From IMG/VR virus record IMGVR_UViG_2744054978_000004: a stretch of 8,593 bases of DNA. One strand, written 5' to 3'. Positions 3,124 to 4,412 of the stretch are shown here, piece by piece. Position numbers and translations under genes: made by a program. The notes below the pieces were generated by a model. It was not told the origin of the DNA. It ran no database searches and saw nothing but the letters and a program-made list of their open reading frames with translations. Source of the DNA: a virus. Taxonomy: Duplodnaviria; Heunggongvirae; Uroviricota; Caudoviricetes. Positions within the stretch are counted from its first letter, which is position 1. The number at the start of each line of letters is the position of its first letter.

Positions 3124-3867
3124 ATGACAGAGACAGAATCAGCGATTCTGGCGCACGCCCGGCGATGTGCGCCAGCGGAGTCGTGCGGCTTCGTGGTGAG
3201 AACGCCGGAGGGGGAAAGATATTTTCCCTGCGTGAATATCTCCGGTGAGCCGGAAGAGTATTTCCGGATGTCGCCGGAGGACTGGCTGCGGGCAGAGATG
3301 CAGGGTGAGATTGTGGCGCTGGTCCACAGCCACCCCGGTGGTCTGCCCTGGCTGAGTGAGGCTGACAGGCGGCTGCAGGTGCAGAGCGATTTGCCTTGGT
3401 GGCTGGTCTGCCGGGGTGAGATTCATAAATTCCGCTGTGTGCCGCATCTTACCGGGCGGCGCTTTGAGCACGGGGTGACGGACTGTTACACGCTGTTCCG
3501 GGATGCTTATCATCTGGCGGGGATTGAGATGCCGGACTTTCATCGTGAGGATGACTGGTGGTGTAACGGCCAGAATCTCTATCTGGATAATCTGGAGGCC
3601 ACAGGGCTGTATCAGGTGCCGTTGTCAGCGGCGCAGCCGGGCGATGTGCTGCTGTGCTGTTTTGGTTCATCGGTGCCGAATCATGCCGCTATTTACTGCG
3701 GCGACGGCGAGCTGCTGCACCATATTCCTGAACAACTGAGTAAACGAGAGAGGTATACCGACAAATGGCAGCGACGCACACACTCCCTCTGGCGTCACCG
3801 GGCATGGCACGCATCTGCCTTTACGGGGATTTACAACGATTTGGCCGCCGCATCGACCTTCGTGTAA
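3124..3867 (+). CDS. K: Tail tip assembly protein K (lambda gpK-like): JAB/MPN (JAMM) metalloprotease domain plus NlpC/P60 (C40) peptidase domain
   Basis: ATG at 3124 is 4 nt after the L stop (coupled arrangement, no obvious SD). JAMM motif H68-S-H70-x7-S78-x2-D81 (nt 3325-3366) with upstream Glu residues; NlpC/P60 catalytic Cys121 in VTDCYTLF (nt 3484-3486) and His187 in NHAAIY (nt 3682-3684). An alternative internal start ATG 3268 (MSPEDW...) would give the 199-aa product that I recall as the classical lambda annotation; 3' end is firm. Confidence 0.82.
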   Translation: MTETESAILAHARRCAPAESCGFVVRTPEGERYFPCVNISGEPEEYFRMSPEDWLRAEMQGEIVALVHSHPGGLPWLSEADRRLQVQSDLPWWLVCRGEIHKFRCVPHLTGRRFEHGVTDCYTLFRDAYHLAGIEMPDFHREDDWWCNGQNLYLDNLEATGLYQVPLSAAQPGDVLLCCFGSSVPNHAAIYCGDGELLHHIPEQLSKRERYTDKWQRRTHSLWRHRAWHASAFTGIYNDLAAASTFV

Positions 3868-4412
3868 AAACGGGGTCTGAAGCCATCCGGGCGCTGTCCA
3901 CACAGGTCCCGGCGTTTCGTCAGAAACTGAATGACGGCTGGTATCAGGTGCGCATTGCCGGGCGTGATGCAGGTGAAACCGAATTATCTGCCCGTCTTAA
4001 TGAGCCGCTGGCAAATGGTGCCGTGATCCATATCGTGCCGCGTCTGGCGGGAGCTAAAAGTGGCGGTGTATTTCAGGTGGTGCTGGGGGCGGCGTTGATT
4101 GCGGTGGCATGGTGGAACCCTGTGGGCTGGCTGGGTGCCGCGGCTGTATCGGGCATGTATGCGGCAGGGGCCAGTATGATCCTGGGCGGTGTGGCGCAGA
4201 TGCTGGCACCGAAAGCCAGGACGCCCACGGCAGCCAGTACAGATAACGGCAAACAGAACACCTATTTCTCCTCACTGGATAACATGGTTGCTCAGGGCAA
4301 TGTTTTGCCTGTTCTGTACGGTGAAATGCGTGTGGGGTCGCGGGTGGTTTCTCAGGAGATCAGCACGGCAGACGAAGGGGACGGTGGTCTGGTTGTGGTG
4401 ATTGGTCGCTGA
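3765..4412 (+). CDS. I: Tail tip assembly protein I (lambda gpI-like), 215 aa
   Basis: N-terminus MAATHTLPLASPGMARICLYGDLQRFGRRIDLRVKTG and C-terminus NGKQNTYFSSLDNMVAQGNVLPVLYGEMRVGSRVVSQEISTADEGDGG match what I recall of lambda gpI. Overlaps the 3' end of K by 103 nt in a different frame. Contains a Gly/Ala-rich hydrophobic central segment. GAGAGAGG at 3746-3753 is a possible SD. Stop TGA at 4410-4412. Confidence 0.85.
   Translation: MAATHTLPLASPGMARICLYGDLQRFGRRIDLRVKTGSEAIRALSTQVPAFRQKLNDGWYQVRIAGRDAGETELSARLNEPLANGAVIHIVPRLAGAKSGGVFQVVLGAALIAVAWWNPVGWLGAAAVSGMYAAGASMILGGVAQMLAPKARTPTAASTDNGKQNTYFSSLDNMVAQGNVLPVLYGEMRVGSRVVSQEISTADEGDGGLVVVIGR

What the first reader, a model, noticed from the sequence alone, without database searches (positions are those of the whole stretch)
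3765..3867. 103-nt out-of-frame overlap between K (peptidase) and I
I starts 103 nt inside the 3' end of K in a different frame, so the two proteins are encoded by the same nucleotides over about 34 codons. This is the same tight arrangement as in lambda. In published comparative analyses (as I recall them) the gpI N-terminal region was proposed to be a ubiquitin-like beta-grasp domain and gpK a JAB + NlpC/P60 protein, suggesting a phage-encoded ubiquitin-like processing or conjugation step in tail tip assembly. The overlap constrains both genes and may enforce a fixed K:I expression ratio through coupling. The mechanism of I initiation inside K is not obvious from sequence, since the SD-like GAGAGAGG sits 11 nt upstream.
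Basis: partly seen in the sequence, partly recalled or inferred. Interest (0 to 1): 0.5.

Follow-up and report, generated by a model that had tools for sequence, protein, structure and literature searches.

The report
Lambda-type K/I tail-gene overlap
Two tail-tip assembly genes of a lambda-like phage share 103 bases read in two frames, exactly as in phage lambda; the overlap is real and conserved but already known, and related phages show it is not needed to balance the two proteins.

Summary
Confirmed. K (3124-3867; JAB + NlpC/P60 peptidase) and I (3765-4412) overlap by 103 nt, with I in the -1 frame, as in lambda, Fels-1 and Stx phages.

The start of I is settled by comparison. ATG 3765 is present in 245/245 lambdoid loci. 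The second ATG (3804) is CTG in a third of them and has no SD. GAG-AGG (3748-3753) is frozen among freely varying wobble sites.

Substitution patterns split the overlap in two. In 3765-3803 K's frame rules, and I's 13-residue leader is unconstrained. In 3804-3867 both frames are constrained (K tail / I beta1-beta2).

I residues 14-95 model as a MoaD/SAMP/ubiquitin-like beta-grasp ending in the conserved GAKSGG. K's JAMM and Cys-His motifs are invariant. These domain calls were published in 2006.

The ratio-by-coupling idea is not supported. Relatives have 4-26-nt overlaps, gaps, or morons with terminators between K and I, and the F-pyocin homologues do not overlap.

Published cryo-EM and MS (lambda, F-pyocin) show that I's N-terminal domain is missing from mature particles, and the protease is unknown. 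K's JAB is the best candidate; this is inferred, not shown.

Verdict: already known, modest interest.

The parts
3124..3867 (+). Gene K, 247 aa plus stop: tail-tip assembly peptidase (long form with a complete JAB domain). The ATG lies 4 nt after the L stop (TAA 3117-3119) and has no SD of its own.
   Evidence: ORF; Pfam PF14464 residues 4-105 and PF00877 residues 111-224; N-terminal 48 aa conserved in distant K proteins
3133..3438 (+). K JAB/MPN+ domain (residues 4-105), with E19 and H68-S-H70-x7-S78-xx-D81
   Evidence: E19, H68, S69, H70, D81 invariant and S78 conserved in at least 90% of 15 K proteins
3454..3795 (+). K NlpC/P60 (C40) domain (residues 111-224), with C121, H187, H199/H200
   Evidence: invariant columns
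3748..3753 (+). SD-like GAGAGG for I, made from K codons Glu209 (GAG) and Arg210 (AGG); 11 nt before the ATG
   Evidence: GAG in 169/169 and AGG in 166/169 unique sequences, while the neighbouring wobble sites 3747, 3756, 3759, 3762 vary; annotated as RBS in Lambda imm21; unpaired in the MFE fold
3765..3867 (+). The 103-nt dual-coding overlap (K codons 214-247 plus stop; I codons 1-34 plus 1 nt)
3765..3803 (+). I start codon and 13-residue leader (MAATHTLPLASPG). It is translated, but its amino-acid sequence is not constrained. It overlaps the conserved end of the K core (KWQRRTHSLWRHRA).
   Evidence: ATG in 169/169 unique sequences; 13 K-synonymous/I-changing alleles against 4 of the reverse kind; mean pLDDT 60 for residues 1-10
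3804..3806 (+). Second in-frame ATG (Met14). This is the family-wide ancestral start position, but it is dispensable here.
   Evidence: CTG in 58/169 unique sequences and in 81/245 loci. Arg224 upstream is CGN, never AGA, so the GGAG seen in Sodalis and mEp044 is absent.
3804..3867 (+). Doubly constrained part: K C-terminal tail (W228...V247, stop 3865-3867) over I beta1-loop-beta2 (M14-V34)
   Evidence: Entropy at K3 sites is 0.36 (0.74 in K-only sequence) and at I3 sites 0.35 (0.95 in I-only sequence). 18 K-synonymous/I-changing alleles against 22 K-changing/I-synonymous alleles. The K tail motif F-x-G-I-x-N-D-L is also present in the non-overlapping Mannheimia K.
3765..4412 (+). Gene I, 215 aa plus stop: tail-tip plug / insertion protein precursor
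   Evidence: ORF; PF06805; 77% identical to lambda gpI of PDB 8IYK
3804..4049 (+). I ubiquitin-like beta-grasp domain (residues 14-95)
   Evidence: AF2 pLDDT above 90; Foldseek hits SAMP1, MoaD, Urm1, ubiquitin
4050..4067 (+). GAKSGG (I residues 96-101): the proposed processing site at the end of the Ub-like domain
   Evidence: G96 and G101 conserved in at least 90% of 29 diverse homologues, P92 invariant. Lambda gpI is resolved 'from position 101 onward' in closed tails (PMC11101478).
4068..4205 (+). Two hydrophobic helices (about residues 102-147)
   Evidence: AF2 helices 100-117 and 120-147; described as predicted transmembrane helices H1 and H2 in lambda
4137..4409 (+). C-terminal part equivalent to lambda gpI 134-223, the portion seen in virions as the trimeric plug under gpH
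   Evidence: Alignment to 9E7M and 8IYK chains; PMC10721106 and PMC12617516
4431..4451 (+). GC-rich hairpin (AAACCGCC-TGCG-GGCGGTTT) followed by a T-rich tail, between I and J
   Evidence: Read directly. Terminators are annotated at the same place in HK633, phiKO2 and Ayreon. It was not picked up by the simple scan.

Best explanation
This is the K/I gene pair of a lambda-like tail-tip assembly module. It has the same 103-nt out-of-frame overlap as lambda.

Shown:
- I is translated from its own start at ATG 3765, inside K. Upstream lies a weak, long-spaced SD-like element (GAGAGG) built from K's Glu209 and Arg210 codons.
- The first 13 codons of I are a free-riding, disordered leader laid over the conserved end of the K core.
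- The next 21 codons (I beta1-beta2) are co-encoded with a conserved 20-residue K tail, and both frames are under purifying selection there.
- The long overlap is specific to one clade. The ancestral start of I is the Met14 position. Sodalis and mEp044 prophages still start there (64- and 58-nt overlaps), with GGAG made from K's Trp223-Arg224 codons. The lambda, Stx, Fels-1 and Providencia lineage moved the start 39 nt upstream, and part of it then lost Met14.
- Most other relatives have 4-26-nt overlaps, with an AAGGA in K's last codons, or are split by morons.

Inferred:
- The overlap is a product of gene compaction that is now locked in by dual coding. It is not a ratio-setting device. Low output from the poor internal ribosome-binding site would fit a protein needed at three copies per tail.
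- In function, I is a precursor made of a ubiquitin-like domain, GAKSGG, two hydrophobic helices and a plug domain.
- The ubiquitin-like domain is removed during tip maturation, most probably by the JAB domain of K cutting after Gly101. The C-terminal part stays in the virion as the plug. I put about 0.5 on this cleavage step taken by itself.
For: Overlap and frames.

Start codon:
- An ATG at the 3765 position is present in 245/245 lambdoid loci. The Met14 ATG is absent in 81 of them.
- Stx phages and Providencia PSTCR8lys have Leu at position 14 and no other start before beta1.
- GAG/AGG are frozen, while Arg208 uses all four CGN codons.
- Arg224 is CGN, never AGA. In Sodalis and mEp044, TGG-AGA gives GGAG 9 nt before their Met14-type start.
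- The region folds no better than shuffled sequence (z = +1.18), and the SD and start are unpaired.

Constraint map.

Distribution across relatives.

Folds and motifs.

Processing:
- Lambda gpI is resolved only from residue 101 (PMC11101478) or from 134/135.
- The single gpI peptide found in virion MS covers 9.87% of the protein. This matches only the 22-residue C-terminal tryptic peptide.
- gpK is absent from virions.
[quoted passage not shown] The K homologue PA0639 is essential for the tip and absent from particles, and the protease is unidentified (bioRxiv 10.64898/2026.02.24.707460).
- The F-pyocin locus has the same domain architecture, an intact HSHP...S..D motif, and no overlap.
Against: - There are no direct data on initiation (Ribo-seq, toeprint or an N-terminal sequence of gpI). 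The lambda ribosome-profiling paper was not available.
- The SD spacing of 11 nt (13 nt in Providencia) is longer than optimal, so other determinants may matter.
- In this window both ATGs exist, so a minor Met14 isoform cannot be excluded. PGAP annotates many identical loci from Met14.
- Cleavage of I by K has never been shown.
- PA0640 expressed alone in E. coli lost its N-terminal region to unknown host proteases, so a dedicated protease may not be required.
- The missing cryo-EM density could reflect disorder rather than cleavage in lambda.
Confidence: 0.75

Rival explanations
1. I really starts at the second ATG (3804, Met14), so the true overlap is 64 nt and codons 1-13 are not translated.
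For: Distant homologues nearly all begin at the Met14 position (query residues 14-16 align to their residues 1-3). The Pfam model starts at residue 14. Many NCBI proteins from loci identical in this stretch are annotated as 200-202 aa. Sodalis and mEp044 prophages use this start, with 64- and 58-nt overlaps.
Against: Met14 is CTG in 58/169 unique lambdoid sequences and in Providencia, with no other start codon before beta1. The upstream ATG is present in every lambdoid locus. No SD precedes 3804 here (TGG-CGT-CAC-CGG-GC), and Arg224 is never AGA. GAGAGG before 3765 is frozen.
Confidence: 0.1
2. The overlap is a translational-coupling device that fixes the K:I ratio.
For: Both proteins act in the same assembly step. 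Ribosomes translating K pass over the I start site. The overlap length is invariant within the clade.
Against: I's start is 100 nt upstream of K's stop, so termination-reinitiation cannot operate. The region is weakly structured, so no unmasking by K translation is needed. Homologous pairs work with 4-26-nt overlaps, a 53-54-nt gap (Psymv2, F-pyocin), or a moron plus terminator between the genes (HK633, phiKO2, Mannheimia). The invariance in length is explained by dual coding.
Confidence: 0.08
3. A programmed -1 ribosomal frameshift in the overlap makes a K-I fusion protein (as with lambda G/GT), tethering the peptidase to its substrate.
For: I is in the -1 frame of K. K-I fusion ORFs exist in databases (P0002, P0004, P0017 and others). 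Iyer et al. noted a prophage with I fused to a JAB domain.
Against: No X XXY YYZ slippery heptamer occurs in K's frame anywhere in 3763-3867 (read). The database fusions are single sequences from single contigs, each with a different junction, as expected from indels or assembly errors. I has its own conserved start.
Confidence: 0.03

Closest known systems
Phage lambda genes K and I (NC_001416: K 14276..14875, I 14773..15444)
   Same: Same synteny (H-M-L-K-I-J-lom), the same 103-nt overlap in the same phase, the same start context, and identical I residues 1-37. By tblastn, K of Lambda imm21 is 96.8% identical and lambda I is 76.7% identical.
   Different: I is 8 residues shorter, within the hydrophobic helices. 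The reference lambda record annotates a 199-aa K because it lacks one G present in re-sequenced lambdas. In this window K is intact at 247 aa.
F-type pyocin PA0639 (K homologue) / PA0640 (I homologue; PDB 25VF chain 9)
   Same: The same two-protein module: a JAB + NlpC/P60 factor absent from particles, and a precursor made of a Ub-like domain, a Gly motif, hydrophobic helices and a plug. [quoted passage not shown]
   Different: The genes do not overlap (54-nt gap). I is about 30% identical. The experimental data come from the pyocin, not from this phage.
Prokaryotic Ub-like / JAMM pairs (archaeal SAMP with the HvJAMM1 desampylase, Caldiarchaeum ubiquitin with an Rpn11 homologue, bacterial ThiS/MoaD-JAB operons of Iyer et al. 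2006)
   Same: A beta-grasp domain ending in Gly, next to a JAMM peptidase. SAMP1 is the best structural match to I. The desampylase model is the best, sub-threshold, NCBIfam match to K (28.8 bits against a cut-off of 130).
   Different: No E1 or E2 gene is present in the module. The Ub-like domain is the N-terminal part of a structural-protein precursor rather than a free modifier. No conjugation is known.
Out-of-frame overlapping or embedded phage genes with their own internal start (phiX174 E within D; lambda Rz1 within Rz)
   Same: A second gene starts inside another in a different frame, from its own ribosome-binding site made of the host gene's codons (my own knowledge of these systems).
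   Different: Here the overlap is only terminal (34 codons). Neither frame in 3804-3867 is a recent invention: the K tail motif and the I beta1-beta2 sequence each occur separately, in non-overlapping genes, in the Mannheimia phage.

Membership tests
JAB/MPN+ (JAMM) metallopeptidase (Pfam PF14464 Prok-JAB) | Profile match above the curated threshold | tested here: met
   53.5 bits against a cut-off of 25, K residues 4-105
JAB/MPN+ (JAMM) metallopeptidase (Pfam PF14464 Prok-JAB) | Catalytic Glu plus the H-x-H-x7-S-xx-D zinc motif | tested here: met
   E19, H68-S69-H70, S78, D81. All but S78 are invariant in 15 K proteins down to 27% identity; S78 is conserved in at least 90%.
JAB/MPN+ (JAMM) metallopeptidase (Pfam PF14464 Prok-JAB) | Peptidase or isopeptidase activity at the C-terminal Gly of a Ub-like domain | not testable with these tools
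   Needs biochemistry. No held paper reports it for gpK.
NlpC/P60 (C40) papain-like peptidase (PF00877) | Profile match and the Cys-His-His/polar catalytic triad | tested here: met
   49.2 bits against a cut-off of 23. D120-C121, H187 and H199-H200 are invariant.
Ubiquitin-like beta-grasp, ThiS/MoaD-type (Pfam PF06805 Lambda_tail_I) | Profile match; beta-grasp fold | tested here: met
   86.2 bits against a cut-off of 23.8. AF2 pLDDT above 90 for residues 11-95. Foldseek probability 1.00 to SAMP1, MoaD and Urm1, with TM 0.67-0.74 normalised on the target.
Ubiquitin-like beta-grasp, ThiS/MoaD-type (Pfam PF06805 Lambda_tail_I) | Conserved glycine at the C-terminal end of the domain | tested here: met
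   P92 invariant; G96 and G101 conserved in at least 90% of 29 homologues
Ub-like conjugation or sulfur-carrier system (E1/E2 + Ubl + JAB operons) | An E1-like adenylating enzyme (and E2) encoded with the Ub-like protein | tested here: not met
   The window holds only H, M, L, K, I, J and lom. The flanks of the relatives showed none.
Lambda K/I overlapping pair | The same synteny and the same 103-nt, -1-phase overlap with ATG-in-K | tested here: met
Programmed -1 frameshift pair (lambda G/GT type) | A slippery X XXY YYZ heptamer in the upstream frame, and a downstream ORF with no start of its own | tested here: not met
   No such heptamer in 3763-3867. I has a conserved ATG and an SD-like element.
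Translationally coupled stop-start junction (ATGA / TAATG type) | The downstream start lies within a few nt of the upstream stop | tested here: not met
   I's start is 100 nt upstream of K's stop. The feature is met in relatives with 4-8-nt overlaps and at the L-K junction here (TAA-tccc-ATG).

The most novel reading that the evidence does not exclude
K and I form a minimal, E1/E2-free ubiquitin-like system inside a virus. The JAB half of K cuts I after Gly101. This acts as a checkpoint that licenses the tip to join the tube and tape measure. The papain-like NlpC/P60 half then either carries out the still unassigned gpH to gpH* cleavage or transfers the freed Ub-like domain onto a tail protein. 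The clade-specific K tail, which is co-encoded with I's first beta-hairpin, would be part of that recognition.
Probability: 0.12. Interest if true: 0.75.

Novelty: already known. Interest (0 to 1): 0.3.

Why it matters
The overlap has been in the lambda map since 1982, and the Ub-like/JAB reading dates from 2006, so the finding adds no new kind of object.

What the comparison adds is practical:
- It fixes which start codon I uses in lambda-type phages. Current annotations disagree, giving 215, 200-202 or even shorter proteins.
- It shows where the two frames truly constrain each other.
- It shows the overlap can be undone in nature. This gives a clean design for engineering: K and I can be separated.

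The twenty-year-old K-cuts-I hypothesis is now directly testable. Cryo-EM and MS in lambda are consistent with loss of I's N-terminal domain, and the F-pyocin data show its homologue is removed. In both systems the protease is unnamed.

Tried and rejected
- Alignment-based locus searches with the diverse I alignment failed, because no stretch was conserved enough. I used single-protein scans and annotated phage records instead.
The single-sequence K model is useless (mean pLDDT 33), so nothing is claimed about the structure of the K tail.
- A K+I co-fold was not attempted. The tool returns no coordinates or PAE, so an interface could not be read.
- The lambda ribosome-profiling paper (Liu et al. 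2013) is not in the library, and no held paper reports K cleaving I.
- Among the 58 closest relatives, 3760-3808 showed zero variation. I first read this as a double constraint. The wider set of 169 sequences shows that K wobble sites there do vary, so the leader is not constrained.
- I checked whether the tail of the non-overlapping Mannheimia K still hides an I-like reading frame. It does not: that frame contains stops.
- P0266, a 2783-aa protein with 19 matched stretches, is a low-complexity repeat translation and a spurious hit.
- K-I fusion proteins in the database are singletons with different junctions. I rejected them as evidence of frameshifting.
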